DNA from: Alphaproteobacteria bacterium
GTDB lineage: Bacteria > Pseudomonadota > Alphaproteobacteria > Micavibrionales > UBA2020
Assembly: GCA_965279315.1 (NCBI GenBank)
Contig: OZ257145.1
Coordinates: 1,099,582-1,163,581, forward strand
Length of the DNA stretch: 64,000 nucleotides
Reading direction: 5' to 3'
Under the pieces are notes generated by a model. The model was not told the origin of the DNA. It saw nothing but the letters and a program-made list of their open reading frames with translations, and made no database searches. Position numbers and translations under genes: made by a program. How positions within the stretch are numbered: the stretch's first letter is position 1; each line of letters opens with the position of its first letter. Positions 5,021 through 60,209 of the stretch are shown in pieces.

Positions 5021-5782
5021 CTATTTGTGTTCCGGGCGCTTGTTTTCCTGCGGGAGCAGGAAAAGGCAGGCGATCATCATGGCCGCCAGAGCCGCCGATG
5101 CCGTGAAGCGCCCAATTGCCAGCCCGCCTTGATCGATAGGCTTGTCAATCAAGTCGCCCAGCGTCGCACCCAGCGGGCGCGTCAGCACAAATGCCGCCCA
5201 GAACAGGGCCGTGCGCGATACCTTCGGGATCATATACAGGCCGCCAATCACGGCCAGCCCCACCGAAAACAAGATCGCGCCGCGTTCATACCCGAAACCG
5301 TTCGTATCCGCGACCCAGTCGCCAAGCGCCGTGCCGAGGGTTTGTGAAAACAGGATCGTCACCCAGGAAAAAACCTCCGCCTTGCGCGACGCGATGGCCT
5401 CGACCGCGACCGAACCGGTCGTGCGACGCCATGCGTAAAACGACAATAACAAAAGCGCCAACAACAATGCCGAACCGCCCGTATATCCAATGCCCATCGA
5501 CCGGTCCGCGAAATCGGCCAGCGTGGTGCCCAGCGTCGTGGTGGCGATGATGACGCCCCAATACAAAAAGCGGTTATAGGCGGCAGCCGCCAGTTGCGCC
5601 CCGACCGCAACGGCGAAAATCGCGAGGAAGACAAGGCTGCTGACGGCATAGCCCAGATCCAGCGTCATCGACAGCGCGTCGCCACCGGTTTCGCCCAGCG
5701 TCGTCGCCAGTATCTTGATGACCCAGAAGGCGAGAGTGATCTCGGGCACTTTGCGCAGGGCAGATGTTGATTCGCTATTCAT
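5021..5782 (-). CDS. polytopic membrane protein with four internal (T)LG-x3-GD repeats (COG4705-like)
   Basis: Start trimmed to MNSESTSALRKVPEITLAFWVIKILATTLGETGGDALS. The repeated motifs TTLGETGGD / TTLGTTLAD / QTLGTALGD / RPLGATLGD each follow a hydrophobic helix. Confidence 0.6.
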   Translation of the reverse strand: MNSESTSALRKVPEITLAFWVIKILATTLGETGGDALSMTLDLGYAVSSLVFLAIFAVAVGAQLAAAAYNRFLYWGVIIATTTLGTTLADFADRSMGIGYTGGSALLLALLLLSFYAWRRTTGSVAVEAIASRKAEVFSWVTILFSQTLGTALGDWVADTNGFGYERGAILFSVGLAVIGGLYMIPKVSRTALFWAAFVLTRPLGATLGDLIDKPIDQGGLAIGRFTASAALAAMMIACLFLLPQENKRPEHK

Positions 5783-5980
5783 GAAGCCATCATGCGCCGC
5801 CAAGCTGAGGGGAATCTGAAACCGTACTTGAAATAAAATAACAGATAGAGTTTCCAGAAGATTTTTGATCGCCAGTATTATGACGAGTATGTCTCTGGGC
5901 GGGTTGACCCCCCTATTTCCGTATGCTACCCGTGACCTCCATTTACCTAATCGCACTTATTTTTCAGGAGACATACGACA

Positions 5981-7261
5981 ATGGCTTATCGCGGCAATGC
6001 AGAATACGAACATGGCGCTTATTACAAAGACGAAGTCAAAACCTCGATCAAATTGACGATCGCCTTCGCCAAAGCTGTCGGCAAGCATCAGGACGACCCG
6101 TCCGACAACCTCGTCGTCTCCCCGTATAACGCCACCGCCGCGCTGTCGATGGTCGCCAAGGGCGCTGTCGGCGAAACCCGCGATGAACTGGCGCAGGCGC
6201 TGTTCGCAACGGATGGCAAAAATCTTGATGACGCCGTCGCTGCCTATTCGAAACTCAACACCGAAATCCTGAAAGCAAATGCAGGCCAGGTGACGCTGAC
6301 GACCGCCAATGGCGTCTGGACGAACAAAGACCTCGTCACGCTGCGCGACGCTTTCGCCAAAGACCTGAAAGACACCATGGGCGCGGACATTTCGGCCGAA
6401 GATTACGCCAACCCGGCCACCGTCGATAAAATCAACAAATGGGCCAGCGACAACACCAACGGCCTGATCACCAAGGTTCTCGAATCCCTCGCGCCCGACG
6501 ATGCGGCGGTGCTGGCATCCGCCCTGCATTTCAAAGGCGAATGGACGAAGAAATTCGACAAGGCCCTGACCGAAGACAAATCCTTCACGCAGGACGGCAA
6601 CGCCGCCGCGACCACCCCCACCATGCATCAGGATTTCGACGATGAAGGCGGCTTCCGTTACCAGAAAGGCAACGGCTTCGAAGCGATCTCCATGACCTAT
6701 GGCGAAGAAAAACACACCGACACCGAATGGAAAAACCCCACCATGCGCCTCGTGCTGGTGCGCCCGACGGATGACAATGTGTCGGCGCGCGATTTCCTCG
6801 GCGCGCAGGAAAATGGCAAGATCCCCGCCTGGCTGGATGTGTACGGCTACAACGACGCGGTCGGCTCCGTCGAACTGCCCCGCATGGACATCAAGCAGAA
6901 ATTCGACCTGATCCCCGCGCTGCGCGACATGGGCATTGAAAAGGCCTTTGGCGGCGGCTCCTTCGAAAACATGGTCGAAAAAGGCGGCGAGAAACTCTAC
7001 GTCTCCAAGGTCAGCCATGACACCGTTTTCAAGACGGATGAACAGGGCTCCGAAGCCGCAGCAGTCACGACCGCCGTCATGACGCTCGAATCCGTGCGTA
7101 TGCCGCCCGAACAGGTCGACATCAAATTCGACCGTTCCTTCCTGTTCGCCCTGCAGGACGTGAAAACCAATGCAGTGCTGTTCATCGGCGCGGTCAACAA
7201 GCCCAATGACGATGTGAAGCCCGCAAAAGCGCCGAAAGCAAAAGCGCCCGGCCTCAAGTAA
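5981..7261 (+). CDS. serpin family protein, paralogue 1 (no signal peptide)
   Basis: 426 aa. Carries NLVVSPYNATAALSMVAKGAVGETRDELAQALF, the hinge DEQGSEAAAVTTAVMTLESVRMPPE, and DRSFLFALQD after the loop. The C-terminal tail is K/P/A-rich. Confidence 0.9.
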   Translation: MAYRGNAEYEHGAYYKDEVKTSIKLTIAFAKAVGKHQDDPSDNLVVSPYNATAALSMVAKGAVGETRDELAQALFATDGKNLDDAVAAYSKLNTEILKANAGQVTLTTANGVWTNKDLVTLRDAFAKDLKDTMGADISAEDYANPATVDKINKWASDNTNGLITKVLESLAPDDAAVLASALHFKGEWTKKFDKALTEDKSFTQDGNAAATTPTMHQDFDDEGGFRYQKGNGFEAISMTYGEEKHTDTEWKNPTMRLVLVRPTDDNVSARDFLGAQENGKIPAWLDVYGYNDAVGSVELPRMDIKQKFDLIPALRDMGIEKAFGGGSFENMVEKGGEKLYVSKVSHDTVFKTDEQGSEAAAVTTAVMTLESVRMPPEQVDIKFDRSFLFALQDVKTNAVLFIGAVNKPNDDVKPAKAPKAKAPGLK

Positions 7262-7285
7262 TTTTTATTTCAAAGGAATAATACA

Positions 7286-8569
7286 ATGGCAAAAGCAAAA
7301 CCCGCCGCGCAGCCGGAATACGAACACGGCCGCCAGTTCAAACCCGAAGTGAAGAACGTCATTAAACTGACGCTCGCCTTCACCAAGGCCGTCGGCAAAA
7401 ATCAGGAGGACGCGAATGAAAACCTCGTGGTGTCCCCCTATAACGCGATCTCCGCGCTCGCGATGGTCGCAAAAGGCGCAGACGGCCTGACCCGCGACGA
7501 AATGGCGCAGACGCTGTTCGGCGTGTCTGGCAAGGACCTCGAAAAAGCGGCGAATGATTACGTCGCCCTGAATGCCGATGTTCTCGCGGCGAACAAGGAT
7601 CAAGTGACGCTGACCACAGCGAACGGTGTCTGGACGAACCAGGAACGCCTGAAGCTCGACCCCGCTTATGCCGATGACCTGAAAAAGATGCACAGCGCGG
7701 AAATTTCCGCCGAAGATTTCGGCGACACGAAAACCGTCGATAAAATCAACAAATGGGCCAGCGACAACACCAACGGGCTGATCCCCGAAGTGCTGACCGA
7801 GCTGAAAAAAGACGACGCGGCGGTTCTCGCCTCCGCTTTGTACTTCAAAGGCGACTGGACGCATAAATTCGACAAGAAACTGACCGAAGACAAAAACTTC
7901 ACGGCAGACGATGCATCGGTCAACGCAACCCCCACCATGAAACAGCGTTTCAAGGAAGAAGGCCAGATCGGCTATCTTGCCGGCGACGGTTATGAAGCGG
8001 TTGCGCTCAACTACGGCCAAGAAGACTGGGAAAACGGCAAGCAGCCCACCATGCGCGTCGTCCTGATCCGTCCGACCGATGATAACGTGTCGGCGCGCGA
8101 CTGGCTGTCCGGCGAAGCAAAAGGCAAAGTGCCCGAATGGCTCGATCCTTACGCATTCAATGACGCGGTCGGCACGGTTGAACTGCCCCGCCTCGACATC
8201 AAGCAGCGCTTCGACCTGATACCCGCCCTGAAAGAAATGGGCATCAAGGAAGCCTTCAACGAAGAAAAAGCCGATTTCGGCAAGATGACGCAATCGGGCG
8301 ACCTGTTCATTGGCAAGGTCCAGCACGACACCGTCTTCAAGACGAATGAAGAAGGCTCCGAAGCCGCCGCCGTCACGACGGTCGGCATGGTTTTCGCGAC
8401 TTCCGTGCGCATGCCCCCGCCCCAGATCGACGTCAAGTTTGACCGTTCCTTTGCCTTCGCATTGCAGGATGTGAAAACGGGCGCGGTGATTTTCGTCGGT
8501 GCGATCAACAAGCCGAACGAAGACATGAAACCCGCCGTCAAAAAACAAAACGCGCCGAAGCCGCGCTAA
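7286..8569 (+). CDS. serpin family protein, paralogue 2 (no signal peptide)
   Basis: 427 aa, 24 nt after paralogue 1. Carries NLVVSPYNAISALAMVAKGADGLTRDEMAQTLF, the hinge EEGSEAAAVTTVGMVFATSVRMPPP, and DRSFAFALQD. Confidence 0.9.
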   Translation: MAKAKPAAQPEYEHGRQFKPEVKNVIKLTLAFTKAVGKNQEDANENLVVSPYNAISALAMVAKGADGLTRDEMAQTLFGVSGKDLEKAANDYVALNADVLAANKDQVTLTTANGVWTNQERLKLDPAYADDLKKMHSAEISAEDFGDTKTVDKINKWASDNTNGLIPEVLTELKKDDAAVLASALYFKGDWTHKFDKKLTEDKNFTADDASVNATPTMKQRFKEEGQIGYLAGDGYEAVALNYGQEDWENGKQPTMRVVLIRPTDDNVSARDWLSGEAKGKVPEWLDPYAFNDAVGTVELPRLDIKQRFDLIPALKEMGIKEAFNEEKADFGKMTQSGDLFIGKVQHDTVFKTNEEGSEAAAVTTVGMVFATSVRMPPPQIDVKFDRSFAFALQDVKTGAVIFVGAINKPNEDMKPAVKKQNAPKPR

Positions 8570-8583
8570 GAAGGAAATAGATC

Positions 8584-9909
8584 ATGGCAAAGAAACCAGC
8601 CGCGAAATCGGTCGGCAAAGGCGCGGTCGCGCCCCAACCGGAACACGGCACGCAGTTCGCGCCCGAAGTGAAGAACGTCATTAAACTGACGCTCGCCTTC
8701 ACCAAGGCCGTGGGCAAAAACCAGCAGGACAAATCCGACAACCTTGTCGTCTCCCCCTACAACGCGCTCGCCGCGTTGTCGATGGTGACCAAGGGCGCGG
8801 ACGGCAAGACGCGCGAAGAGCTCGCGCAGGCGCTGTTCGGCGTGAAGGGCAAAGACCTTGATAAGGCAGCCGATGCCTATGCTGCGCTCAACAACGACGT
8901 GCTGGCCGCGAACAAGGGCCAGGTTGAACTGACGACCGCAAACGGCGTCTGGACGAACCGGGATTTCATGACGCTGAAGCCCGATTTTGCCGATGACCTG
9001 AAAAAAACCTTCGGTGCGGAAATCTCCGCCGAAGACTTCGCCGACAAGGCGACGGTCGCGAAAATCAACAAATGGGCCAGCGACAACACCAACGGCCTCA
9101 TCCCCAGCGTGCTCGACAAGCTGAAAAAAGACGACGCGGCGATCCTCGCCTCGGCGCTCTACTTCAAAGGCCAGTGGACACACAAGTTTGACAAGAAATT
9201 GACCGAAGACAAGCCTTTCGCGCTGGATGGCAACAAACTCAACACCACGCCGACCATGCATCAGGATTTCGGCCGCCGTGACGATTTCACGTTCAGCAAC
9301 GGCAATGATTATCAGGCGGTCGCGCTGACCTATGGCGAGAAAAATGCGAAGGAAGGCAAACAGCCAACCATGCGCATCATCCTCGTCCGCCCGACGGATG
9401 AAAATGTTTCCGCGCGGGACTGGCTGGCGACACAGGCGAACGGGGCCGTGCCCGAATGGCTCGACCCCTACGCCTTCCGCAATGCCGAGGGTTCGGTCGA
9501 ACTGCCGCGCCTCGACATCAAGCAGAATTTCGACCTGATCCCCGCCATGAAAGACATGGGCGTGAAGGAAGCGTTCAACGAACAGGGCGCGGATTTCAGC
9601 AAGATGGCGGAAAAGATCGGCAAGGAACTCTATATCGGAAAAATCAGCCACGACACCGTTTTCAAGACAGATGAAAATGGCTCGGAAGCGGCTGCTGTTA
9701 CCGTCGTCGGGATGGTGCGCGCGACCAGCATCCAGATGCCGCCGCCCCGCATCGACCTGAAACTCGACCGCTCTTTCGCGTTCGCCCTGCAGGACATCAA
9801 GACCGGTGCGGTGCTGTTCATCGGCGCGGTCAATAAACCAAACAACGACCTGAAACCGGCGCAGGCGGCAGCGAAAAAGCCCAAGGCAGCCACCCGCAAA
9901 ATGATCTAA
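8584..9909 (+). CDS. serpin family protein, paralogue 3 (no signal peptide)
   Basis: 441 aa, 14 nt after paralogue 2. Carries NLVVSPYNALAALSMVTKGADGKTREELAQALF, the hinge ENGSEAAAVTVVGMVRATSIQMPPP, and DRSFAFALQD. Confidence 0.9.
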   Translation: MAKKPAAKSVGKGAVAPQPEHGTQFAPEVKNVIKLTLAFTKAVGKNQQDKSDNLVVSPYNALAALSMVTKGADGKTREELAQALFGVKGKDLDKAADAYAALNNDVLAANKGQVELTTANGVWTNRDFMTLKPDFADDLKKTFGAEISAEDFADKATVAKINKWASDNTNGLIPSVLDKLKKDDAAILASALYFKGQWTHKFDKKLTEDKPFALDGNKLNTTPTMHQDFGRRDDFTFSNGNDYQAVALTYGEKNAKEGKQPTMRIILVRPTDENVSARDWLATQANGAVPEWLDPYAFRNAEGSVELPRLDIKQNFDLIPAMKDMGVKEAFNEQGADFSKMAEKIGKELYIGKISHDTVFKTDENGSEAAAVTVVGMVRATSIQMPPPRIDLKLDRSFAFALQDIKTGAVLFIGAVNKPNNDLKPAQAAAKKPKAATRKMI

Positions 9910-9927
9910 GGCGGCAGGCATAAATGC

Positions 9928-9964
9928 GAAACGGCCCGAACCATGGTTCGGGCCGTTTTATTTT
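9928..9964. terminator. bidirectional intrinsic terminator after the serpin operon
   Basis: AACGGCCCGAA-ccatgg-TTCGGGCCGTT followed by TTTTATTTT. Lies between the convergent serpin 3 and the lipoprotein gene. Confidence 0.7.
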
Positions 9965-9977
9965 GCGCGGGTTTTTG

Positions 9978-10340
9978 TCAGCAACCGCTACCCTTCAATC
10001 CCCATTTCGACACGCGGCCCTGCACCAGCATGAACGTGGTTTCGCAGGCCGTTGTTTCGCGGGCGGGCGGCAATGCGCCGATGCAGTTGTTATACCCGAA
10101 ACGTCCGCCATAGCCGCCCATGCAGGTGTTGAACGAACCGCCGTAATCGCGGTTGCGGATTTCAACGTAGGACAGCATGCGGGTTGCGCGGTCGAGCTGG
10201 TAGGTTTTGTCGGGGATGCCGAGGGTGGAAACAAGTTCCTTTTCCGACGCGCCGATCCAGCGGTCGAGCCGCGCGTTACGGTCGCCAGCGGACGCGCAGG
10301 CGGATAATAACAAAACGGCCAGGATGGCGAATTTGCGCAT
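9978..10340 (-). CDS. lipoprotein (hypothetical)
   Basis: MRKFAILAVLLLSAC gives a signal peptide plus a lipobox cysteine. 120 aa, Gly/Cys-containing. No family recognised. Confidence 0.65.
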   Translation of the reverse strand: MRKFAILAVLLLSACASAGDRNARLDRWIGASEKELVSTLGIPDKTYQLDRATRMLSYVEIRNRDYGGSFNTCMGGYGGRFGYNNCIGALPPARETTACETTFMLVQGRVSKWGLKGSGC

Positions 10341-23723: not shown

Positions 23724-23884
23724 ATCAGTTGCTTATTTAGGTTGAAACGATTATTTACCTTTATTCGTTATAGTTAAGATGGGGTAAAAGGTTTCTCAAA
23801 GCTAGTTGAAATCCCCGCTTTCAGATAGATTTTAACGATAACGCCAAAAAAGGCGTAGCTGCGCCCCAGAAGAAGGAAACAACA

Positions 23885-24586
23885 GTGCATCTCGACATCC
23901 TTATTTTCGCGGCCATCGCGGCATTCCTCATTTACCGGCTCAATTCCGTACTGGGCACGCGCAATGGCAATGAACGCCAGCGCCCGAACCCGTTGAACCC
24001 CGCTGCCGATCCCGCGCGCGTCAACCCGCTGGAGGCGCCGAACACCGTGCGCCCCACCGCAGCGCCGACGCCCGTCATGACCCCCGCCGCGCTGGGGCTG
24101 GTCATCGATGCCGATGCCAACCGCGACGGCCGCGTGGAACAGGGCCTCGCCGATATCCGGCAGGAGGACAGCTATTTCGACCTCAACACTTTCATGCAGG
24201 GCGCGCGTTATGCGTTCGAACTGATCGTGACGGCTTATGCGCGCGGCGACCTGGCCGCCATCCAGCCGCTGGTCAGCCCGAAACTGTACAACGATTTCGC
24301 GGGCGGCGTTCGCGCGCGCGAAGCGGCGGGGCATACCGCCGAACTGACGCTCCACCGCGTTCAGCATGCAAAAATCGTCGAGGCCCATATGGGCGGCGCG
24401 ATGGCCTATGTGACGGTCGATTTCCAGGTCGAGGAAAGCACCGTCACGCGCGATAAATCTGGGCAGGTCGTCGACGGCAATCCCGACAGCGTGTTCACGA
24501 TCCGCGATATCTGGACGTTCACGCGCGACACGCGCACGACCGACCCCAACTGGATTCTTATTGAGACTCGCTCCGCCGACCAGTAA
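23885..24586 (+). CDS. Tim44-like domain protein
   Basis: GTG start. N-terminal helix MHLDILIFAAIAAFLIYRLNSVLG, C-terminal Tim44-like domain (FMQGARYAFELIVTAYARGD ... WTFTRD). Has the conserved alphaproteobacterial position beside secB. Confidence 0.8.
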   Translation: MHLDILIFAAIAAFLIYRLNSVLGTRNGNERQRPNPLNPAADPARVNPLEAPNTVRPTAAPTPVMTPAALGLVIDADANRDGRVEQGLADIRQEDSYFDLNTFMQGARYAFELIVTAYARGDLAAIQPLVSPKLYNDFAGGVRAREAAGHTAELTLHRVQHAKIVEAHMGGAMAYVTVDFQVEESTVTRDKSGQVVDGNPDSVFTIRDIWTFTRDTRTTDPNWILIETRSADQ

Positions 24587-24626
24587 TATCCCCTGAATTC
24601 TTAAATCTTCCCGCGGGGGTATTTCC

Positions 24627-25856
24627 ATGCGCGCACTCTCCATGCTCTGCCTGATCGTGCTTGCCGCCTGCGCCGGCGCGCCCGATGCGGGCAAGGCGAA
24701 GAAAGCGGAAGATCCGTTTTACCTGAAACCCACCGTGTTCGAAAAGCTGCCGGGCTGGGACGCCGATGCGCAAAGCGCCGCGCTGGTGCCGATGCGGAAA
24801 TCATGCGCGCGCATCGCGAAAAAAGACGCCGCCAAATCCTTCGGCCCCACCGATATCGCGGGCAGCTATGCCGATTGGCAGGCTGTGTGCGAAAAACTGC
24901 CCGTGGACGCCGATGATGCCGCCGCGCGCGCGTATTTCGCCGAAAACTTCACCGCCTATGAAATCTGGGATGCGCAGGACCGCGACGGCCTGTTCACCGG
25001 CTACTACGAACCCATCCTGCACGGGTCGCTGACAAGGAAAAAACCGTATCTCATCCCCCTCTACGAACGCCCGGATGACATGGTCACCGTCAACCTCGGC
25101 GATTTCAAGCCGGAGCTGAAGGGCGAAACGGTCACGGGCCGCGTCGATGGTGAAAAACTCGTGCCCTATTTCACCCGCGCCGATATCGAAAAAGGGGCGC
25201 TGAAAAAGCAGGACAAGGTGGTGTGGGTCAACAGCGCGGTCGATGCGTTTTTCCTCCATATCCAGGGATCGGGTCAGGTGAAGATGGAGAACGGCGATAT
25301 CCTGCGCGTGGGTTACGCCGCGCAGAATGGCCGCGCCTATACCGCCATCGGCAAATCACTGTTGGACAAGGGCGAGTTGCAGCCGGGCAATGTCTCGATG
25401 CAATCGATCCGCCAATGGCTGGAAACGCATCCCGACAAAGCCGCCGACATCATGAATATCAACGAGTCATATGTTTTCTTCCGCAAGCTGGACGGCGACG
25501 GCCCGTTGGGGGCCGAAGGTGTGGCCCTGACCCCGAAGCGCAGCATGGCGGTTGACCGCAAGAAATTCCCCTATGGCGCGCCGATCTTTATCGATGCCGC
25601 AAAACCTGAAGGCGAAGGCCGCCTGCAGCAGCTGATGGTCGCGCAGGATACCGGCGGCGCGATCAAGGGCGCGGTGCGCGGCGATTTCTTCTGGGGGGCG
25701 GGTGATGAAGCGGCGCATAATGCGGGCGTCATGAAATCCAAGGGGCAGTCCTATATCCTGCTGCCGAAATCCGTCGCCGTTCCCGCCAAATATGCGCCCC
25801 GCCCGTGGTGGATGAAGGCGGGTGGCGCGGGCGACGGTTTCGTTTATAATAATTGA
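24627..25856 (+). CDS. mltA: membrane-bound lytic murein transglycosylase A
   Basis: Lipoprotein-type leader MRALSMLCLIVLAAC. MltA motifs FFLHIQGSG, and AVDRKKFPYGAPIFI...DTGGAIKG (3D domain). Confidence 0.9.
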   Translation: MRALSMLCLIVLAACAGAPDAGKAKKAEDPFYLKPTVFEKLPGWDADAQSAALVPMRKSCARIAKKDAAKSFGPTDIAGSYADWQAVCEKLPVDADDAAARAYFAENFTAYEIWDAQDRDGLFTGYYEPILHGSLTRKKPYLIPLYERPDDMVTVNLGDFKPELKGETVTGRVDGEKLVPYFTRADIEKGALKKQDKVVWVNSAVDAFFLHIQGSGQVKMENGDILRVGYAAQNGRAYTAIGKSLLDKGELQPGNVSMQSIRQWLETHPDKAADIMNINESYVFFRKLDGDGPLGAEGVALTPKRSMAVDRKKFPYGAPIFIDAAKPEGEGRLQQLMVAQDTGGAIKGAVRGDFFWGAGDEAAHNAGVMKSKGQSYILLPKSVAVPAKYAPRPWWMKAGGAGDGFVYNN

Positions 25857-27608: not shown

Positions 27609-27761
27609 CAGCCTAATGTTAATGCGTTGAACGGTCTAGTGATTTGCGCGAAAGAAGACCAAACCAGTCAGATTTGAAGGGCATTTTCTTGAACCTGTGT
27701 CATTGATTAGCTGGGTTGGGGCGTGTAAATCTATGACAGCACATTGAAGTGGAAAACGCCC

Positions 27762-29093
27762 ATGCCCCTGACAAAGTTTCCGAATTCGGCCGAAAATGCC
27801 CCCGCAAAAACGGAAGTGTCTTCCGCCAAGGCAACGGCGCTCGGCTTTTACGAAAGCTTTTTCCAAGGCCGTATCGCCGACCTGCACAAGGAAGGCCGCT
27901 ACCGCGTTTTCGCGAATCTGGAACGCCAGGCCGGACGTTTCCCGCAAGCCCTTTATCGCGGCGAAGATGGCGTTGATCGCGAAGTCACCATCTGGTGCTC
28001 CAACGACTACCTCGGCATGGGCCAGCACCCGAAAGTGATCGGCGCGATGTGCGACGCGGCCAAGGCTGCGGGCGCGGGCGCGGGCGGCACGCGCAACATT
28101 TCCGGCAACACGCATTACCATGTCGTCCTTGAAAATGAACTGGCCGATTTGCATGGCAAGGAAGCGGGTTTGCTGTTCACCTCCGGCTATATCTCCAACG
28201 AGGCGGCGATCAGCACAATTGCGAAACTGCTGCCCGATTGCGTCATTTTCTCGGATGCGCAAAACCACGCATCGATGATCGCGGGCATCAAGGGCTCGGC
28301 TTGCGAAAAATTCATCTTCCGCCACAACGATATCCAGCACCTCGAACAGCTGCTGCAATCGGTCGAGCGTTGCCGCCCGAAAATCATCGCGTTTGAATCC
28401 GTTTATTCGATGGATGGCGACATTTCGCCGATCAGGGAAATTTGCGACCTCGCCGAAAAATACGGTGCGTTGACGTATCTTGACGAAGTCCATGCCGTCG
28501 GCATGTACGGCCCCCGTGGTGCGGGCGTCGCCGAACGCGACGGGCAGATGCACCGCGTCGATATCATCGAAGGCACGCTGGGCAAGGCGTTCGGCGTCAT
28601 GGGCGGTTATATCGCCAGCACGAAAGCGATCATCGATGTCGTGCGTTCTTACGCATCGTCTTTTATCTTCACGACCGCGCTGCCGCCCGCATTGCTGGCC
28701 GCCGCGACCGCGAGCGTGCAGCACCTGAAAACCTCGTCGGCGGAGCGCGAACGCCAGCAGGAACGCGCTGCGACGCTGAAACGCATGCTGGCCGAAGCCG
28801 GCCTGCCCGTGCTGCCCTCCGTCAGCCATATCGTGCCTGTCATGGTGGGTGATGCGCGCCTGTGCAAAAAAGCCAGCGATGACCTGATGCAAAAGCACAA
28901 TATCTATGTGCAGCCCATCAATTACCCGACCGTGCCGCGCGGCACCGAACGCCTGCGCCTGACGCCCACGCCGCTGCATTCGGATGCCGACATGCAAAAA
29001 CTGGTCGATGCGCTGGTCGATGTCTGGGCGGGCCTCAACCTGCGCCGTGGGGCGCAGATCCTCAGCTTCCAGCCGGCGGCGGAAGCGGTTTAA
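27762..29093 (+). CDS. hemA: 5-aminolevulinate synthase
   Basis: [34 protein letters not shown] and the pyridoxal-Lys region TLGKAFG. Start uncertain: TTG at 27744 or ATG at 27762. Confidence 0.9.
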
Positions 29094-29098
29094 TCTTT

Positions 29099-29668
29099 TT
29101 ATTCCTTGGTCGTTGCCATCGGTTTCGCGGGCGGCAGGCCGATCACGCCGTCTTGCTGCGACAACAACGGCGCGCCCTGCGGCAGTCTTGAAAACTCTGC
29201 AATCTCCGCCGCCGTCTGCGCATCCTCGCGCGCGCGCGTGCCGCCGCACAACCCGCCCACATCATATGTGCCCGACGGAAAATCATACAGCGACCATCGC
29301 TCGTAAACATCCGGCACGCGCTGGTACGCAAAGAACAGGTATGATTTGCCGACCATGAAATCGGCGCCCATGCAGGTGTTCACATGTCGGTTGCTGTAGA
29401 ATTTGAACGTATTGCCCTTTTCAACGCCCTTGTACGCTTCGGTCACATTCACCGTCACCACAACCGGGATATCGGCGTTGCCGCGCTGCGTCCATTCCAT
29501 CACTTCGGCGGCCTCCGTCACCGTGCCGGTGAAGACCGCGCCCGACTGCCCCCACCGTTTTTCCAGCGGCTGCGCCATGCATCCGCATTGGGTGCGCTTT
29601 TGCGACGCCAGCGCGGGCAGGGCGGAAACCAGCATCATCAGAAGGGCAAGAACGGGAAGCGGGCGCAT
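29099..29668 (-). CDS. secreted protein, possible NTR/TIMP-like OB-fold module
   Basis: Signal peptide MRPLPVLALLMMLVSALPALA. The mature part carries QCGC...AVFTGTV...TEAYKG...TCMGADFMVGKSYLFFA, which resembles the TIMP N-domain spacing. By-eye call only. Confidence 0.6.
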   Translation of the reverse strand: MRPLPVLALLMMLVSALPALASQKRTQCGCMAQPLEKRWGQSGAVFTGTVTEAAEVMEWTQRGNADIPVVVTVNVTEAYKGVEKGNTFKFYSNRHVNTCMGADFMVGKSYLFFAYQRVPDVYERWSLYDFPSGTYDVGGLCGGTRAREDAQTAAEIAEFSRLPQGAPLLSQQDGVIGLPPAKPMATTKE

Positions 29669-33564: not shown

Positions 33565-35076
33565 TTATTTCTTGAACTTGACGACCACGTAATTGCGGTC
33601 GTTCTTGCGTGCGATGAACAGCAGCACCGAAGGTTCGCCCGCTTTCTGCGCGGCCGCCGCCTTGGTGGCGACGTCTTCGGGCGTGCCGACGTCCTGTTGA
33701 TCGATCTCGACCACCACGTCGCCCTCGGCGAGGCCTTTTTGGGCGGCAGGGCTGTCGGCGGTGACGCCGGAGACAAGCGCGCCGGTCACCGATTTCGCGA
33801 CGCCGTATTTTTCGCGCGCCTCATCGGTCAGCAGGGACAGTTTAAGCCCGATCGAGGGCACGTCGGTTGCGGGCATCTTTTCTTCCGCTGCCGCTTCCGG
33901 CTTGTCCTTGCCGCCCGGGGTCAGCTGGCCTGCCTCTTCGGCGGTTTCCAGCTGGCCGAGGGTCACGGTGATCTTCGTGTTTTCGCCCTTGCGCCAGATG
34001 CCCAGTTCCACCTTGCGGCCCACTTCGGCCTCGGCGACCATGCGCGGCAGGCGTTTCATGGCGGATACGGGCGCGCCGTCAAACGTCATGATGACGTCGC
34101 CGGACTTGATGCCGGCCGCTTCCGACGGGCCTTTTTCCGTGACGCTCGACACAAGCGCGCCATGCGAATTCTTGGGCAGGCCCAGGCCTTCCGCAATGTC
34201 GGGCGTCACGTCCTGGATGCGCACGCCCAGCCAGCCGCGTTTGGTCTTGCCGTATTTGACCAGCTGGTCGACGACGCTTTTCACGATGTTCGACGGCACG
34301 GCAAAGCCGATGCCGACCGAACCGCCCGAGGGGGAGAAGATGGCCGTGTTCACGCCCACCACTTCGCCGTTCATGTTGAACATCGGGCCGCCGGAATTGC
34401 CGCGGTTGATCGATGCGTCGGTCTGGATGAAGTCATCATACGGGCCGGCATTGATGTCGCGCTGCCGGGCGGAAACGATACCCGCCGTGACCGTGCCGCC
34501 AAGGCCGAACGGGTTGCCGATCGCCAGCACCCATGAGCCCACTTTCGAATTGTCGCTGTTGCCCCATTTGGTCGAGACGAGGGGGATATCGGTTTTCACC
34601 TTCAGAACCGCGATGTCGGTTTTCTCGTCCGTGCCGACCAGCGTCGCGTCCAGCGTCGTGTCGTCATGCAGGATGATCTTGATCTCTTCCGCGCCCTTGA
34701 TGACGTGGTTGTTGGTGACGATGTAACCGTTCACCGCATCGACGACAAAGCCGGAGCCGAGCGCGGAGACTTTTTCTTCTTCCTGCGCACCGCCGCCGCC
34801 TTGCTGGTTTTTATATTCGTCATAGAATTTTTTCAGGAATTCGTCGAAGGGCGAACCGGTGCCGCCCGGGGGCAGTTCCGGCAGGTCGGGCAGCGGCATG
34901 CGCTGTGCGGCCGGTGCCTTTGCGGAGGTCGACACGTTCACGACCGTCGGCAACAGCGCCTCGGCCAGGTTTTCAAAACCGTCGGGCGATGCCGCGCGTG
35001 CGCTGACAGGGGCCAGCAGGGCAATGGCGCAAAGCGCGCCCATGACGGTGGGAAAGCGGTACAGGGTGTTTAACAT
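33565..35076 (-). CDS. degP: periplasmic serine endoprotease DegP/HtrA (Do family, two PDZ domains)
   Basis: Signal peptide. Catalytic triad context TNNHV, D-I-A-V-L-K and GNSGGPMFN. Two PDZ-like segments. Confidence 0.9.
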   Translation of the reverse strand: MLNTLYRFPTVMGALCAIALLAPVSARAASPDGFENLAEALLPTVVNVSTSAKAPAAQRMPLPDLPELPPGGTGSPFDEFLKKFYDEYKNQQGGGGAQEEEKVSALGSGFVVDAVNGYIVTNNHVIKGAEEIKIILHDDTTLDATLVGTDEKTDIAVLKVKTDIPLVSTKWGNSDNSKVGSWVLAIGNPFGLGGTVTAGIVSARQRDINAGPYDDFIQTDASINRGNSGGPMFNMNGEVVGVNTAIFSPSGGSVGIGFAVPSNIVKSVVDQLVKYGKTKRGWLGVRIQDVTPDIAEGLGLPKNSHGALVSSVTEKGPSEAAGIKSGDVIMTFDGAPVSAMKRLPRMVAEAEVGRKVELGIWRKGENTKITVTLGQLETAEEAGQLTPGGKDKPEAAAEEKMPATDVPSIGLKLSLLTDEAREKYGVAKSVTGALVSGVTADSPAAQKGLAEGDVVVEIDQQDVGTPEDVATKAAAAQKAGEPSVLLFIARKNDRNYVVVKFKK

Positions 35077-35213
35077 TTACAGAATCCTCCATAACCTTTT
35101 TAGGTTTGTTTCAACTAGAGTTAGGCCTGTTGCGGGTGAGCGTCAATCGATGAAAGTGGCGATATTTTTGCGAAAAGGCAGCAGGATTTTGGAACTGTCA
35201 GCGTGACAGTTTT

Positions 35214-35411
35214 TCAAGGCATTCCCCGCACCATCGCGACCACCACAAAACCCAGTGCCGCGAGCAGAAGGCCTGCGGTGCGCAGCTGTTGCGGGTCGAG
35301 GAGCGATATCTGCGCGGTCATCCTGCGCATGGCATCGGGGAACAGGGCGTACATCGCCCCTTCGATCACCAGCATCAGCCCGAGCGCAACGGCAAGATCC
35401 GTCATGGTCAC
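35214..35411 (-). CDS. DUF2065 small membrane protein
   Basis: 65 aa with two helices (LGLMLVIEGAMYALFP ... AGLLLAALGFVVV). Has the conserved position after hflC. Confidence 0.65.
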   Translation of the reverse strand: MTMTDLAVALGLMLVIEGAMYALFPDAMRRMTAQISLLDPQQLRTAGLLLAALGFVVVAMVRGMP

Positions 35412-36283
35412 TTCTTGCCGGAGCTGTCCTTGAAGTATTTAAAGAAATCGCTGTCGGGCGACAGGATCAGCGTGGTGTCGGAACCCGAAAGGCTTTCACG
35501 GTACGCCTCCATGCTGCGGTAGAAGCCGTAGAATTCGGGGTCCTGCTTGAACGCATCGGCATAGATCTTGATCGCTTCTTCGTCGCCAAGACCGCGCTGG
35601 ATCTGCGCCTGGCGGCCGGCCTCTGCCAGCAATACGGTGCGTTCCTTGTCGGCCTGCGCGCGGGTTTCGTTGGCGAACTGCTTGCCTTCGCCGCGGAACT
35701 GCGCGGCTTCCTGCTGGCGGGCGGTGATCATGCGCTCGAAGATCGACTGGCTGGTCTGTTCGGGCAGGTCGGCGCGGCCGATGCGCACATCGACGATTTC
35801 AACGCCCATGTCCTTGGCCGCCACGTTCACGCGCTCCTTGATCGAATGCATCAGCGTCGCGCGCTTTTCCGACAGCACATCGGCAAGGGTCGCCGTGCCC
35901 AGCACTTCGCGGGTCACGGAATTGATCAGGTTGTTGATGCGGTCGCGCGCGGCGTCTTCGGTGCCGACGGTGTTGTTGAAGGCCAGCATGTCGTTGATGC
36001 GGTAGCGGCCGAAGGCGTCGATCACGACGCGCTTCTGGTCGGCCAGGATCACTTCTTCGGACGGCGGCGCCACGTTCAGCACGCGCTTTTGGAACACGCG
36101 CACGTTCTGGATGAAGGGTGTTTTGAATTTCAGCCCGGGTTCGGTGTACATCGACGCCGGACGCCCGAATTGCAGCACCATCGCCTGGGTGCCCTGCCGG
36201 ACGATGAAGGCGGCCTGCGTGACCAGCACGAAGCCGGCCACAAGGATGAAAAGGAAAAACGTGCCTGATTTGCTCATGATCAT
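35408..36283 (-). CDS. hflC: protease modulator HflC
   Basis: 291 aa with an N-terminal TM helix and an SPFH/band-7 domain. Follows hflK. Confidence 0.9.
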   Translation of the reverse strand: MIMSKSGTFFLFILVAGFVLVTQAAFIVRQGTQAMVLQFGRPASMYTEPGLKFKTPFIQNVRVFQKRVLNVAPPSEEVILADQKRVVIDAFGRYRINDMLAFNNTVGTEDAARDRINNLINSVTREVLGTATLADVLSEKRATLMHSIKERVNVAAKDMGVEIVDVRIGRADLPEQTSQSIFERMITARQQEAAQFRGEGKQFANETRAQADKERTVLLAEAGRQAQIQRGLGDEEAIKIYADAFKQDPEFYGFYRSMEAYRESLSGSDTTLILSPDSDFFKYFKDSSGKK

Positions 36284-36291
36284 TTTCTCCG

Positions 36292-37524: not shown

Positions 37525-37630
37525 GGCGAACAACCTTGTTAAGTATTGCGGAAAAGGCTATAGAGTGCCCTATATATGTTGAGCATGATTGAAATAGGGC
37601 TGCAAGGATTTTAGGCAAGAAGGCGTTGTT

Positions 37631-43066: not shown

Positions 43067-43096
43067 TTGACATAAATATATGCCGTGTGCTATGTT
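43067..43096 (+). promoter_or_regulatory. candidate sigma70-type promoter
   Basis: TTGACA-N18-TATGTT with a TG dinucleotide just upstream of the -10 box, about 30 nt before the 43126 start. Confidence 0.4.
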
Positions 43097-43125
43097 TTTC
43101 CATCCTGAAAAAAGGCCGAAAAACG

Positions 43126-44106: not shown

Positions 44107-44128
44107 AAACCCCCGCTTTTCAACTACT

Positions 44129-44156
44129 TTGCTTTTTCCCGAAAAGAGGCTATATT
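44129..44156 (+). promoter_or_regulatory. candidate ssrA promoter
   Basis: TTGCTT-N16-TATATT immediately upstream of the tmRNA acceptor piece. Confidence 0.5.
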
Positions 44157-44162
44157 AAAGAT

Positions 44163-44515
44163 GTCAGCCGCAAGGCCGACTATGACGATAAACGCGCTGT
44201 GTAATAGGCGATACGGACCCGGGGGCGGTACCCGGCGGCTCCACCATCTACAAAGGTTTTGCGGGATATGAGTTCTTCCGCATCCGGTATGGGGCCGAAA
44301 TAGGATCGACGTGCGTAATAAAGATGGTTGCTTTCGTTCGGTATTGTACCACCGTTATCGGGCTACTTTGATAAATGCTAATGACAATCAGCCGGCAACG
44401 GCAGAACTCCGCCTCGTCGCCTAACGGCACGTAAGCGTAGTTAGCATTCAATCCCTTAGGTAGTAATACTTAGGGTGGGGCGCGGGGCGGGCCTAGCAAC
44501 AGAACCGCCCCACTT
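44163..44515 (+). ncRNA. ssrA: two-piece (circularly permuted) tmRNA
   Basis: The acceptor piece ends ...CCGGGggcggtaCCCGG-CGGCTCC-A-CCA at 44246. The coding piece starts GGGGCCGAAATAGGATCGACG at 44291. GGGGCCG pairs with CGGCTCC and includes a G3-U pair. The tag frame is 44377-44424, with terminal stem GGGGCGG...CCGCCCC at 44484-44511. Outer ends are approximate. Confidence 0.85.
44377..44424 (+). other. tmRNA tag-encoding reading frame (ANDNQPATAELRLVA)
   Basis: GCT AAT GAC AAT CAG CCG GCA ACG GCA GAA CTC CGC CTC GTC GCC TAA. The ANDN start is typical of alphaproteobacterial tags. Confidence 0.75.
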
Positions 44516-51224: not shown

Positions 51225-51510
51225 GTCAGGATAGGGAAGGTACTACTATCTTAGGCGTAACCGGTAAATTTTCAGGCAACCTGATTCCGTTGTCGGAAGC
51301 ACGGCGATTCTAGTCACGGATGTTGATATTTGCAAAATACCATCTACGTCCTTGATTATGGGTTCTCAAGGGTCATTATCAGCAGCCAAAAATGTCTAAT
51401 GCCTCTAGGGTAGGCTAAAATGGTTTACGTTATGTAAACTTATGGCGTAATATTCTGACTTTGTTAACTTTTGTATGGCACTCTTGATACTGGAGGAATT
51501 CGAGGAAGAC

Positions 51511-54783: not shown

Positions 54784-54786
54784 TAC

Positions 54787-60191: not shown

Positions 60192-60209
60192 CCGGGGAGG
60201 GCGGGCGGG

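What the first reader, a model, noticed from the sequence alone, without database searches (positions are those of the whole stretch)
5981..9909. Operon of three tandem leaderless serpins with diversified reactive-centre loops
Three consecutive same-strand genes (426, 427 and 441 aa, with 24- and 14-nt spacers) all show serpin hallmarks. These are NLVVSPYNA..AL.MV.KGA.G.T..E near the N-terminus, the hinge E.GSEAAAVT, and DRSF.FALQD after the loop.

None has a hydrophobic signal peptide. Instead they share a polar N-terminal extension (E(Y)EHG..F.PEVKN.IKLT.AF.KAVGK) and a Lys/Pro/Ala-rich C-terminal tail.

The stretch between the hinge and the conserved MPP(P/E) differs between paralogues: TAVMTLESVR, TVGMVFATSVR and VVGMVRATSIQ. 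The bait region has therefore diversified on a conserved scaffold, as expected for inhibitors with different protease targets.

Serpins are sporadic in bacteria. A three-gene array of apparently cytoplasmic or non-classically exported ones is unusual, and their targets are unknown.
Basis: partly seen in the sequence, partly recalled or inferred. Interest (0 to 1): 0.72.

Follow-up and report, generated by a model that had tools for sequence, protein, structure and literature searches.

The report
Conserved three-serpin operon, no signal peptides
Three adjacent genes in an uncultured Micavibrio-like alphaproteobacterium encode protease-trapping serpins without export signals, each with a different conserved bait loop; the same ordered trio recurs in related genomes, so it is a real but only moderately novel feature whose protease targets remain unknown.

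Summary
ORFs 5981-7261, 7286-8569 and 8584-9909 (+ strand; 24- and 14-nt spacers) are full-length serpins (PF00079, E 6e-77 to 1.5e-82; AF2 pLDDT about 90). Their hinge is of the inhibitory type (E-x-G-S-E-A-A-A-V-T).

All three ORFs are already maximal. None has a Sec, Tat or lipoprotein signal. All carry a short basic Lys/Pro/Ala tail.

New findings:
- The trio has its own conserved promoter and 5'-UTR, three Shine-Dalgarno sites and one terminator.
- The same array, in the same gene order and the same chromosomal position (acyl-CoA ligases … pheT/pheS), occurs in related uncultured alphaproteobacterial genomes. One family member is labelled Micavibrio sp.
- The three bait loops are conserved classes: position 1 …T-L-E, position 2 …F-A, position 3 …R-A/S. 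They hold while scaffolds diverge to about 50% identity.
- The paralogues are old (third-codon-position identity 0.56) and have native codon usage. No relatives were found on viral contigs or plasmids.

Most likely they are three suicide-substrate inhibitors that stay in the cytoplasm and cover Leu/Glu-, Phe- and Arg-directed proteases. Location, scissile bond and targets are inferred, not shown.

This is a new variant of a known kind, of moderate interest.

The parts
5904..5932 (+). Putative promoter of the serpin operon: -35 TTGACC (5904-5909), a 17-nt spacer, then an extended -10 TGC-TACCCG (5924-5932). The invariant block TATGCTA lies at 5922-5928.
   Evidence: TTGAC and TATGCTA are conserved in all 7 syntenic loci aligned, including the distant L012 and L017. 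Sequence read. The generic sigma-70 scan did not call it. The promoter assignment is an inference.
5940..5951 (+). Conserved 5'-UTR motif CATTTACCTAAT, function unknown.
   Evidence: Conserved (ATTTACCTAA) in W, L003, L011, L005, L013 and L017, and partly in L012.
5966..5970 (+). Shine-Dalgarno AGGAG of serpin 1.
   Evidence: Sequence read; it lies 10 nt before the ATG at 5981.
5981..7261 (+). Serpin 1 (426 aa), reactive-loop class L-E (…AVMTLE|SVRMPP).
   Evidence: PF00079 E = 6.4e-77. AF2 pLDDT 89.4, pTM 0.84. Orthologues occupy array position 1 in all arrays.
7040..7105 (+). Serpin 1 hinge and reactive-centre loop (aa 354-375: EQGSEAAAVTTAVMTLESVRMP).
7208..7258 (+). Serpin 1 basic C-terminal tail DDVKPAKAPKAKAPGLK (net charge +3).
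7286..8569 (+). Serpin 2 (427 aa), reactive-loop class F-A (…VGMVFA|TSVRMPPP). Shine-Dalgarno AAGGA lies in the 24-nt spacer.
   Evidence: PF00079 E = 2.2e-80. PDB sequence hits are conserpin, SERPINB1 and neuroserpin at about 1e-35 to 1e-37. Spacer read.
8348..8416 (+). Serpin 2 hinge and reactive-centre loop (aa 355-377).
8519..8566 (+). Serpin 2 basic C-terminal tail EDMKPAVKKQNAPKPR (net charge +3).
8584..9909 (+). Serpin 3 (441 aa), reactive-loop class R-A (…VGMVRA|TSIQMPPP). Shine-Dalgarno GAAGGA lies in the 14-nt spacer.
   Evidence: PF00079 E = 1.5e-82. AF2 pLDDT 90.1, pTM 0.85. Foldseek hits to serpins at E about 1e-30. Spacer read.
9673..9741 (+). Serpin 3 hinge and reactive-centre loop (aa 364-386).
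   Evidence: Residues 380-391 have pLDDT below 50.
9844..9906 (+). Serpin 3 basic C-terminal tail NDLKPAQAAAKKPKAATRKMI (net charge +5).
9928..9964 (.). Intrinsic terminator: a 14-bp GC-rich hairpin (9928-9941 paired with 9946-9959) followed by UUUUAUUUU. It lies between the convergent serpin 3 gene and the lipoprotein gene 9978-10340(-).
   Evidence: RNA fold dG = -30.9 kcal/mol, z = -3.0 against shuffles. Sequence read.

Best explanation
This is a self-contained chromosomal operon: one conserved promoter and 5'-UTR, three ribosome-binding sites and one terminator. It encodes three serpins of the inhibitory type.

Each serpin represents a different, evolutionarily conserved bait-loop class. 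Counting 17 residues from the hinge Glu gives P3-P2-P1 = T-L-E (gene 1), V-F-A (gene 2) and V-R-A (gene 3).

Proposed mechanism. A target endopeptidase cleaves the exposed loop at or next to the Leu/Glu, Phe or Arg and forms an acyl-enzyme. The hinge then inserts into beta-sheet A and drags the protease into a covalent, inactive complex.

Proposed location. The proteins lack any Sec, Tat or lipoprotein signal, while a paralogue elsewhere in a related genome has a normal Sec signal. The trio therefore most likely stays in the cytoplasm.

Proposed role. The three serpins form a three-specificity safety net, covering Leu/Glu-, Phe- and Arg-directed serine (possibly cysteine) endopeptidases. They would protect the cell interior from its own stock of degradative proteases before export, or from foreign proteases. 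This resembles how clade-B serpins protect leukocytes and how Tk-serpin restrains Tk-subtilisin. The host appears to be a Micavibrio-like alphaproteobacterium, and the cultured Micavibrio is an obligate predator with a large hydrolase arsenal.

The basic Lys/Pro/Ala tail on an otherwise acidic protein may tether the inhibitors to a polyanion such as DNA, RNA, polyphosphate or the membrane.

Shown: fold, hinge, loop classes and their conservation, absence of export signals, operon signals, synteny, and age of the paralogues.
Inferred: inhibitory activity, the exact scissile bond, cytoplasmic location, targets, and the role of the tail.
For: Serpin identity:
- PF00079 full-length matches, E 6e-77 to 1.5e-82.
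- 195 PDB serpin chains hit; the best are conserpin, SERPINB1 and neuroserpin.
- AF2 pLDDT 90.1 and 89.4; Foldseek top hits are all serpins at E about 1e-30.
- 37-38 of 51 classic conserved serpin positions are identical, including S53, W194, H334, E342, G344 and A347.

Inhibitory type:
- The hinge E-x-G-S-E-A-A-A-V-T is present in all three.
- Both AF2 models place the hinge as a strand next to s5A, and they best match latent or cleaved serpins. Loop insertion is therefore sterically plausible.

Three conserved specificities:
- L-E class: 41 proteins, scaffold identity down to 0.48, P2 Leu and P1 Glu shared by definition, with neighbouring positions P6-P3 also nearly fixed.
- F-A class: 19 proteins.
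- R-x class: 54 proteins.
- The gene order L-E, F-A, R is the same in every array recovered.

No export signal:
- The ORFs are maximal.
- 0 of 146 family members have Tat or lipobox motifs.
- Only 3 of about 116 have a hydrophobic N-terminus. Two of these look like over-extended gene calls. The third, P0119, is a true Sec-signal paralogue at another locus and lacks both the N-terminal motif and the basic tail.

Operon: Shine-Dalgarno sites, conserved promoter and UTR, terminator.

Vertical, old, native:
- Same synteny in L003, L011, L012, L013 and L017.
- Third-codon-position identity 0.56 between paralogues.
- RSCU correlation 0.90-0.94 and GC3 0.73-0.78, both within the range of 18 reference genes.
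- No relatives on viral contigs; plasmids carry only serpins at 31% identity or less.

Host:
- Alpha-type tmRNA.
- Relatives are labelled 'Bdellovibrionales', which is where NCBI places Micavibrio, and one family member is labelled 'Micavibrio sp.'.
- Micavibrio encodes 49 proteases and peptidases, thought to be stockpiled before attack (PMC3189940).

Precedent: leaderless prokaryotic serpins have been hypothesised to control cytoplasmic proteolysis, and Tk-serpin and Pnserpin inhibit endogenous proteases (PMC8233489).
Against: - No protease gene is linked to the operon in any of the loci. The only serine protease in the window is a housekeeping DegP/HtrA next to hflK, about 24 kb away.
- The class-defining residues Leu, Phe and Arg sit at the 16th residue from the hinge Glu, not the canonical 17th (P1). 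The scissile bond is therefore ambiguous: L|E or E|S, F|A or A|T, R|A or A|T.
- The P' side of the loop is about 6 residues longer than in alpha-1-antitrypsin.
- Chymotrypsin- or subtilisin-fold proteases active in a bacterial cytoplasm are rare (general knowledge), so a cytoplasmic target is not obvious.
- The family-wide basic tail is not needed by a simple cytoplasmic-trap model and could instead be an export or anchoring device.
- Absence of a signal peptide is negative evidence only.
- Both AF2 models are in the relaxed (inserted) state and say nothing about the native metastable form.
- The Micavibrio link rests on submitters' taxonomic labels of MAGs, not on a phylogeny made here. PheS gave no cultured relative at 74% identity or above.
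Confidence: 0.5

Rival explanations
1. The three serpins are exported by a route that needs no N-terminal signal, such as a C-terminal signal via type I secretion, vesicles, or release at the predator-prey contact. They would act outside the cytoplasm against prey, competitor or environmental proteases. The conserved basic tail would serve as the export signal or as an anchor to anionic surfaces (LPS, extracellular DNA).
For: - The tail with its conserved NKPN-[DE]-[DE]-M-K-P start is present family-wide and is absent from the one Sec-signal paralogue, P0119. It therefore correlates with the leaderless state.
- Most characterised bacterial serpins act extracellularly, and chloropin is secreted and DNA-accelerated (PMC10090351; PMC8233489).
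- Prey proteases do affect Micavibrio predation, although those shown are metalloproteases (PMC6145908).
- Micavibrio has a type I secretion system (PMC3189940).
Against: - The tail is short (median 17 aa), Lys/Pro/Ala-rich and basic. From general knowledge this is unlike the C-terminal signals of RTX-type type I substrates.
- No secretion genes are adjacent in any locus.
- The lineage uses an ordinary Sec signal when it does export a serpin (P0119).
Confidence: 0.25
2. The trio regulates, or guards against, specific intracellular proteases rather than giving general protection. Candidates are Arg-specific caspase-like proteases (orthocaspases or metacaspases), protease effectors of bacterial immune or cell-death systems, or phage-encoded maturation proteases. 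It would act as a brake or as a defence.
For: - It is leaderless and has three fixed specificities, including an Arg class and a Glu-containing class.
- From general knowledge, the leaderless plant AtSerpin1 inhibits metacaspases. Serpin-ZX (3le2) is among the PDB sequence hits.
- The array is retained across the clade as a core locus.
Against: - There is no match to any PADLOC defence model.
- The neighbourhood is housekeeping, not a defence island.
- No caspase-like or defence protease lies nearby.
- No paper in the searched library connects bacterial serpins with phage defence.
Confidence: 0.12
3. They are non-inhibitory serpins (chaperone-, carrier- or storage-like) that have kept the fold but not the trap.
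For: - The AF2 models are in the relaxed, loop-inserted state.
- The candidate P1 is off by one from the canonical length, and the P' side is unusually long.
Against: - The hinge matches the inhibitory consensus at P17, P15, P14 and P12-P10.
- Shutter and breach residues are conserved.
- Class-specific purifying selection on P5-P2' is what one expects of a protease bait, not of a non-inhibitory loop.
- AF2 often returns the thermodynamically stable relaxed state (general knowledge).
Confidence: 0.05

Closest known systems
Intracellular clade-B serpins (SERPINB1/LEI, PAI-2, PI-9) of vertebrates
   Same: They have no signal peptide. They are among the best PDB sequence matches (4ga7 and 1hle LEI at E about 1e-35; PAI-2 at 6e-34). 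From memory, SERPINB1 has a Phe-Cys pair at P2-P1 and uses both bonds; gene 2 here has Phe-Ala, and one relative has Phe-Cys. Their role is cytoprotection against the cell's own stored proteases.
   Different: Sequence identity is only about 25-30%. The proteins here are bacterial, are arranged as a three-cistron operon, carry a basic C-terminal tail, and have a longer P' side of the loop. No activity data exist.
Tk-serpin (Thermococcus kodakarensis) and Pnserpin (Pyrobaculum neutrophilum)
   Same: [quoted passage not shown]
   Different: They are archaeal, single genes, and have no K/P/A tail. No close sequence relationship was shown here.
Chloropin (Chlorobium limicola) and the chromatin serpin MENT
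   Same: Their inhibition is accelerated by DNA through basic surface elements. Chloropin has P1 Arg (PMC10090351). MENT (2dut) is among the PDB sequence hits. The basic tails here could play a similar polyanion-template role.
   Different: Chloropin has a signal peptide and binds DNA through residues near helix D, not through a C-terminal tail. Polyanion binding by the tails here is untested.
Secreted or lipoprotein bacterial serpins (miropin, siropins, Bifidobacterium longum serpin)
   Same: They share the serpin fold and inhibitory hinge. Miropin structures (5ncs by sequence; 5ncu and 5nct by fold) are among the hits.
   Different: Those carry export signals and act on host proteases (PMC8233489). 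The proteins here have none and come from environmental, non-host-associated MAGs.
Tengpin (Thermoanaerobacter tengcongensis)
   Same: It is a bacterial serpin with a terminal extension that stabilises the native state. Its structures 2pee, 2pef and 2vh4 are among the hits. The conserved start of the tail here (…N-[DE]-[DE]-M-K-P) is modelled with moderate confidence and a short beta-bridge, so it might likewise dock on the body.
   Different: In tengpin the extension is N-terminal. No evidence was obtained here that the tail affects metastability.

Membership tests
Serpin superfamily (Pfam PF00079 / MEROPS I4) | Full-length match to the family HMM above the curated threshold | tested here: met
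   259.7, 271.1 and 278.3 bits against a cut-off of 27; model positions 6-370 of 370.
Serpin superfamily (Pfam PF00079 / MEROPS I4) | Serpin fold | tested here: met
   AF2 models of S3 and S1 have pLDDT 90.1 and 89.4 and pTM 0.85 and 0.84. Foldseek against the PDB gave 415 hits at E <= 0.001; the top 50 are all serpins, with TM up to 0.92 on the target.
Serpin superfamily (Pfam PF00079 / MEROPS I4) | Conserved core residues (51 positions in alpha-1-antitrypsin numbering; list and A1AT sequence recalled from memory, Irving et al. 2000) | tested here: met
   37, 37 and 38 of 51 positions are identical, and most others are conservative changes. S53, N158, W194, H334, E342, G344, A347, F370, G386 and P391 are kept. 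Numbering was sanity-checked: E342, M358, W194 and H334 were recovered.
Inhibitory serpins | Hinge consensus: P17 Glu, P15 Gly, P14 Ser/Thr, P12-P9 small residues | tested here: met
   The hinge is E-x-G-S-E-A-A-A-V-T in all three genes and in nearly all family members. P9 is Val, as in neuroserpin (from memory). The consensus is quoted in PMC8233489.
Inhibitory serpins | Loop length of 17 residues from P17 to the scissile P1, with a P1 that matches a protease | tested here: inconclusive
   The 17th residue is Glu, Ala and Ala; the 16th is Leu, Phe and Arg. Either bond could be used, and the scissile bond cannot be read from sequence.
Inhibitory serpins | Stressed-to-relaxed transition with loop insertion into sheet A | tested here: inconclusive
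   Both AF2 models place the hinge (S3 366-377; S1 356-368) as a strand after s5A and best match latent or cleaved serpins. This shows that insertion is compatible with the sequence, not that a metastable native state exists.
Inhibitory serpins | SDS-stable covalent complex with a target protease | not testable with these tools
   This requires recombinant protein and protease panels.
Leaderless (intracellular-type) serpins | No N-terminal Sec, Tat or lipoprotein signal | tested here: met
   The ORFs are maximal. Maximum 12-mer hydropathy is 1.36-1.47, from helix A. 0 of 146 have Tat or lipobox motifs. No dedicated predictor such as SignalP was available.
Leaderless (intracellular-type) serpins | Demonstrated cytoplasmic location | not testable with these tools
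   This requires fractionation or proteomics in the organism or a surrogate host.
Secreted bacterial serpins (miropin / siropin / chloropin type) | Cleavable signal peptide or lipobox | tested here: not met
   Absent in S1-S3. Present in the distant paralogue P0119, which starts MKKIFAALALSFMLFAPPAQA.
Polyanion-modulated serpins (chloropin, MENT, antithrombin type) | Basic element that binds DNA or heparin and accelerates inhibition | tested here: inconclusive
   A basic tail (+3 to +5) sits on a protein body of net charge -18, -14 and 0. Across the family the tail median is +3 and the body median is -11. Binding was not testable.
Known anti-phage defence systems (PADLOC-DB) | Match to a defence-system protein model | tested here: not met
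   No PADLOC hit for the three serpins or their two flanking genes.

The most novel reading that the evidence does not exclude
The leaderless L-E / F-A / R trio is a dedicated cytoplasmic 'protease immunity' module of predatory Micavibrio-like bacteria. It would be polyanion-tethered through the basic tails and would neutralise foreign proteases that reach the cytoplasm. Such proteases could be phage maturation proteases, injected protease toxins, or prey proteases taken up during feeding. This role differs from restraining the cell's own enzymes, and it would be a protease-inhibitor-based defence not yet described in bacteria.
Probability: 0.08. Interest if true: 0.8.

Novelty: new variant of a known kind. 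Interest (0 to 1): 0.45.

Why it matters
The physiological role of prokaryotic serpins is described as enigmatic in the main phylogenetic survey of the superfamily (PMC8233489), and the targets of nearly all of them are unknown (PMC10090351).

This locus offers an unusually clean system for addressing that question:
- three co-transcribed, leaderless inhibitors;
- bait loops fixed as three distinct classes, in a fixed gene order, across a whole clade;
- a host lineage whose cultured relative lives by deploying hydrolases against other bacteria.

The three conserved loops are direct, testable predictions of three protease specificities. Pull-downs with the recombinant serpins could identify the partner proteases and show whether bacteria use cytoplasmic serpins for self-protection, as leukocytes do.

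The gain is incremental rather than conceptual. The proteins are already annotated as serpins in public records, and no new mechanism is required.

Tried and rejected
- NCBIfam: no model matches the three proteins.
- PADLOC defence models: no hit.
- Exact-protein look-up of the window's own serpin 2 gave no contig record, so the source record could not be named.
- PheS homologue search for taxonomy: the top 120 hits (74-98% identity) are all uncultured MAGs labelled Alphaproteobacteria, Bdellovibrionales or Proteobacteria; none is cultured.
- Literature searches found nothing for serpin plus Micavibrio, for the assembly accessions, or for serpin plus anti-phage defence.
- The AFDB50 structure library was not available.
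- Viral contigs: no relative. Plasmids: only generic serpins at 31% identity or less, in Rhizobium and haloarchaea.
- The generic sigma-70 scan found no promoter, and the terminator scan listed only minus-strand chance hits and missed the plus-strand hairpin. The promoter and terminator were found by comparative alignment and folding instead.
- The long antisense ORFs over the same region (5957-7018, 7265-8548 and 8566-9921, minus strand) have no Pfam match. I rejected them as shadow ORFs of a GC-rich coding region.
- Recent in-situ duplication is rejected: third-position identity is 0.56 and orthologues of each copy occur in other genomes.
- Recent horizontal transfer is rejected: codon usage and GC3 are native and synteny is conserved.
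- The hydrophobic N-termini of P0068 and P0072 are rejected as signal peptides. Close relatives start at the internal MPRD…, so these are probably over-extended gene calls.
- An RpoH-type promoter, CtrA box and LexA box in the upstream region were looked for by eye only, and no convincing match was seen.

Full report
**1. The observation**

They are the only serpin-like ORFs in the 64-kb window.

Each matches Pfam PF00079 over essentially the whole model, positions 6-370 of 370, with E = 6.4e-77, 2.2e-80 and 1.5e-82. Serpin 2 hits 195 distinct PDB serpin sequences; the best are conserpin, SERPINB1/LEI, neuroserpin and PAI-2, at 1e-34 to 1e-37.

AlphaFold2 models built with family alignments are confident. 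S3 has pLDDT 90.1 and pTM 0.85; S1 has pLDDT 89.4 and pTM 0.84. Foldseek against the PDB returns only serpins at the top, at E about 1e-30.

I aligned the three proteins to alpha-1-antitrypsin, using a sequence recalled from memory. The numbering was checked by recovering E342, M358, W194, S53 and H334. Of the 51 classic conserved serpin positions, 37-38 are identical.

The long ORFs on the opposite strand of the same region have no Pfam match and are shadow ORFs.

**2. Anatomy of the locus**

Each cistron has a Shine-Dalgarno sequence at the right distance: AGGAG at 5966-5970, AAGGA in the first spacer and GAAGGA in the second. There is no hairpin between the genes.

After gene 3 there is a 14-bp GC-rich hairpin (9928-9959) followed by UUUUAUUUU, with dG = -30.9 kcal/mol and z = -3.0 against shuffles.

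The upstream divergent ORF (DUF347 membrane protein) probably starts at the ATG at 5782 rather than at 5956. That leaves an AT-rich intergenic region of about 200 nt.

I aligned the 240 nt upstream of the first serpin gene from seven syntenic loci. Three elements are conserved even in the most distant loci:
- TTGAC(C) at 5904-5909;
- an invariant TATGCTA at 5922-5928, readable as -35, a 17-nt spacer and an extended -10 (TGnTACCCG);
- a 5'-UTR motif CATTTACCTAAT at 5940-5951.

The trio is therefore a self-contained transcription unit. The promoter assignment is an inference.

**3. No export signal, and a basic tail**

The ORF listing begins each ORF at the first start codon after a stop, so no upstream start can supply a signal peptide. 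The most hydrophobic 12-mer in the first 50 residues scores 1.36-1.47, and it is serpin helix A (H27-45 in S3 and H17-35 in S1). Only about 15-26 residues precede helix A, and they are disordered (pLDDT 54-72).

No Tat or lipobox motif occurs in 146 family members. Three of about 116 relatives have hydrophobic N-termini:
- Two (P0068, P0072) look like over-extended gene calls, because their close relatives start at the internal MPRD….
- The third, P0119, has a textbook Sec signal (MKKIFAALALSFMLFAPPAQA). It sits at a different locus in a MAG lineage that also has the leaderless array. It lacks both the N-terminal motif and the basic tail.

So this lineage uses Sec when it exports a serpin, and the array members do not.

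After the normal serpin C-terminus (…GAVNKPN) nearly all members continue with [DE]-[DE]-M/L/V-K-P followed by a Lys/Pro/Ala-rich stretch. The median length is 17 aa and the median net charge is +3, while the rest of the protein has a median net charge of -11. In the S3 model the first part of the tail has pLDDT 78-86 and a short beta-bridge. In S1 the tail is less confident, at 65-74.

**4. The bait loops**

The hinge is E-x-G-S-E-A-A-A-V-T in all three proteins. That fits the inhibitory consensus (P17 Glu, P15 Gly, P14 Ser, P12-P10 Ala; consensus quoted in PMC8233489).

Counting 17 residues from the hinge Glu gives the following:

| Gene | P3-P2-P1 \| P1' |
|---|---|
| 1 | T-L-E \| S |
| 2 | V-F-A \| T |
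| 3 | V-R-A \| T |

The class-defining residues Leu, Phe and Arg are therefore one position N-terminal of the canonical P1. From memory, SERPINB1 has Phe-Cys at P2-P1 and uses both bonds. The scissile bond cannot be decided from sequence. The P' side is about 6 residues longer than in alpha-1-antitrypsin.

Both AF2 models place the hinge as a beta-strand next to s5A and leave the distal loop poorly defined. Their best structural matches are latent or cleaved serpins: latent antithrombin L chains, latent tengpin 2pef, latent conserpin 5cdz and cleaved CBG. This shows the loop can be accommodated in sheet A. It does not show what the native state is.

**5. Comparative evidence**

Homologues at 50-100% identity are numerous, and almost all come from uncultured Alphaproteobacteria.

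The array sits in the same chromosomal position in several genomes: two AMP-binding acyl-CoA ligases upstream, and a small lipoprotein gene, pheT and pheS downstream.
- L003, L011, L012 and L017 have three genes.
- L013 and L014 have two genes.
- L015 has a single R-class gene elsewhere.

The gene order is always L-E, then F-A, then R. At least three further metagenomic contigs carry one member of each class (contig lengths combined loop classes).

Across the family, loop residues stay fixed while scaffolds diverge:

| Class | Proteins | Lowest scaffold identity | Conserved loop residues |
|---|---|---|---|
| L-E | 41 | 0.48 | P6 A, P5 V, P4 M, P3 T nearly fixed; P1' Cys or Ser |
| F-A | 19 | 0.58 | G-M-x-F-A-T-S |
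| R-x | 54 | 0.51 | G-M-x-R-(A/S/T) |

The classes were defined by their P2 and P1 residues, so those two positions are shared by definition. The informative result is the conservation of the neighbouring positions.

The window's own paralogues are 63-71% identical in the scaffold, and only 56% identical at third codon positions, so they are old. Their codon usage (RSCU r = 0.90-0.94) and GC3 (0.73-0.78) lie within the range of 18 Pfam-supported genes of the window.

No relative was found on viral contigs, and plasmids carry only unrelated serpins at 31% identity or less.

**6. An unexpected phylogenetic pattern**

I built a neighbour-joining tree with the loop masked and ran 100 bootstraps.
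- Each sub-clade is well supported: window-type F-A 100, L012-type F-A 100, L012-type R 81.
- 'All F-A' is never monophyletic (0 of 100), and 'all R' almost never (5 of 100).
- The L012-type F-A and R genes group together (70 of 100).

Either the Phe/Arg split arose twice, or neighbouring genes have been homogenised by gene conversion while selection kept the loops apart. Exact nucleotide matches of 44-50 nt between paralogues, despite the low third-position identity, are compatible with small conversion tracts. I did not resolve this.

**7. Host**

The window carries an alpha-type permuted tmRNA, so the host is an alphaproteobacterium.
- A 96%-identical locus (L004) and a PheS relative are labelled 'Bdellovibrionales bacterium'. 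NCBI taxonomy places the alphaproteobacterial predator Micavibrio in that order.
- A family member (TVQ82489.1) is labelled 'Micavibrio sp.'.
- The window also has a type IV pilus cluster with two PilT-like ATPases.

This points to a Micavibrio-like lineage, but it rests on submitters' labels, and no cultured relative appeared.

The Micavibrio aeruginosavorus genome paper reports 49 proteases and peptidases, proposes that hydrolases are stockpiled before attack, and does not mention inhibitors (PMC3189940).

**8. Interpretation**

The best-supported reading is three inhibitory serpins with three conserved specificities, co-expressed and most likely retained in the cytoplasm. They would form a safety net against Leu/Glu-, Phe- and Arg-directed endopeptidases. 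This is analogous to clade-B serpins in leukocytes, and to the proposed housekeeping role of leaderless prokaryotic serpins (PMC8233489). The basic tail may tether them to a polyanion; DNA-accelerated inhibition is documented for chloropin and MENT (PMC10090351).

Weak points:
- no linked protease gene;
- an ambiguous scissile bond;
- few obvious cytoplasmic targets;
- reliance on the absence of signals;
- an unexplained tail that could equally be an export or anchoring device.

Rival readings are signal-independent export to act on prey or environmental proteases, control of or defence against specific intracellular or phage proteases, and non-inhibitory serpins. They are scored separately. 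No PADLOC model matches, and the neighbourhood is housekeeping.

**9. Verdict**

It is not an isolated curiosity. It is a conserved, collinear, three-class serpin operon of a clade of uncultured, probably predatory alphaproteobacteria.

The proteins belong to a well-known family and are already annotated as serpins. The leaderless three-class operon with a basic tail appears undescribed in the literature I could search. I rate it a new variant of a known kind, of moderate interest.

Noticed in passing
window 5904-5951; L003, L005, L011, L012, L013, L017 upstream regions: Promoter-like elements (TTGAC … TATGCTA) and a 5'-UTR motif (C)ATTTACCTAA(T) upstream of the first serpin gene are conserved even between loci whose proteins are only about 60% identical. 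The closer group also shares a further block, TTTCCAGAAGATTTTTGATCGCCAGTATTATG. Either could be a regulator binding site; its identity is unknown.
   Followed up: partly
window 6419-6462 / 7733-7776 / 9061-9098, and 7343-7392 / 8662-8711: Exact nucleotide matches of 38-50 nt occur between paralogues whose third codon positions are otherwise only 56% identical. These may be small gene-conversion tracts or strong local constraint.
   Followed up: partly
family tree (loci L012, L017 versus window, L011, L005): With the loop masked, the F-A class is never monophyletic (0 of 100 bootstraps). F-A and R genes of the same genome group cluster together (70 of 100). This implies either two independent Phe/Arg splits or concerted evolution of neighbouring genes with the bait loops preserved.
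   Followed up: partly
L018 6001-7281 (protein P0119): A Sec-signal serpin paralogue (loop …IGIT|SV) lies at an unrelated locus in a MAG lineage that also has the leaderless array. It lacks the N-terminal motif and ends right after NKPNDEMK, without the basic tail.
   Followed up: partly
L012 12110-14527; L017 10743-11390: The space between the serpin array and the lipoprotein/pheT genes is a variable insertion point. It holds a fatty-acid cis/trans isomerase (CTI) gene in L012 and an ankyrin-repeat protein in L017.
   Followed up: no
window 5021-5956 (-): The DUF347 membrane-protein ORF is probably over-extended at its 5' end. A start at the ATG at 5782 (MNSESTS…) fits the Pfam repeats and leaves a 198-nt divergent promoter region. 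This gene is absent from the equivalent position in the related loci L011, L012 and L017.
   Followed up: partly
window 44124-44514 and about 44647-45143 (+): An alpha-type two-piece tmRNA (tag reading ANDNQPATAELRLVA) is followed directly by the gene for SspB, the adaptor that delivers ssrA-tagged proteins to ClpXP.
   Followed up: partly
window 33565-37533 (-): A DegP/HtrA-type serine protease with two PDZ domains lies next to hflK (and presumably hflC). It is the only serine endopeptidase seen in the window, and nothing links it to the serpins.
   Followed up: no
window 51475-63472 (+): A type IV pilus cluster: a PilB-like ATPase with an MshEN domain, PilC, a 545-aa protein with no Pfam match, an ABC ATPase, a TPR protein, a PilD prepilin peptidase and two PilT/PilU-like retraction ATPases.
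   Followed up: no
window 27636-29249 (-), 54787-56424 (+), 23774-24694 (-): Large ORFs (537, 545 and 306 aa) have no Pfam match. A DUF6782 putative metallopeptidase lies at 43087-44106.
   Followed up: no
AF2 models of S3 and S1: Both models came out in the loop-inserted (latent-like) state rather than the native metastable state. This is probably a property of the predictor, but it means the native loop conformation was not modelled.
   Followed up: partly
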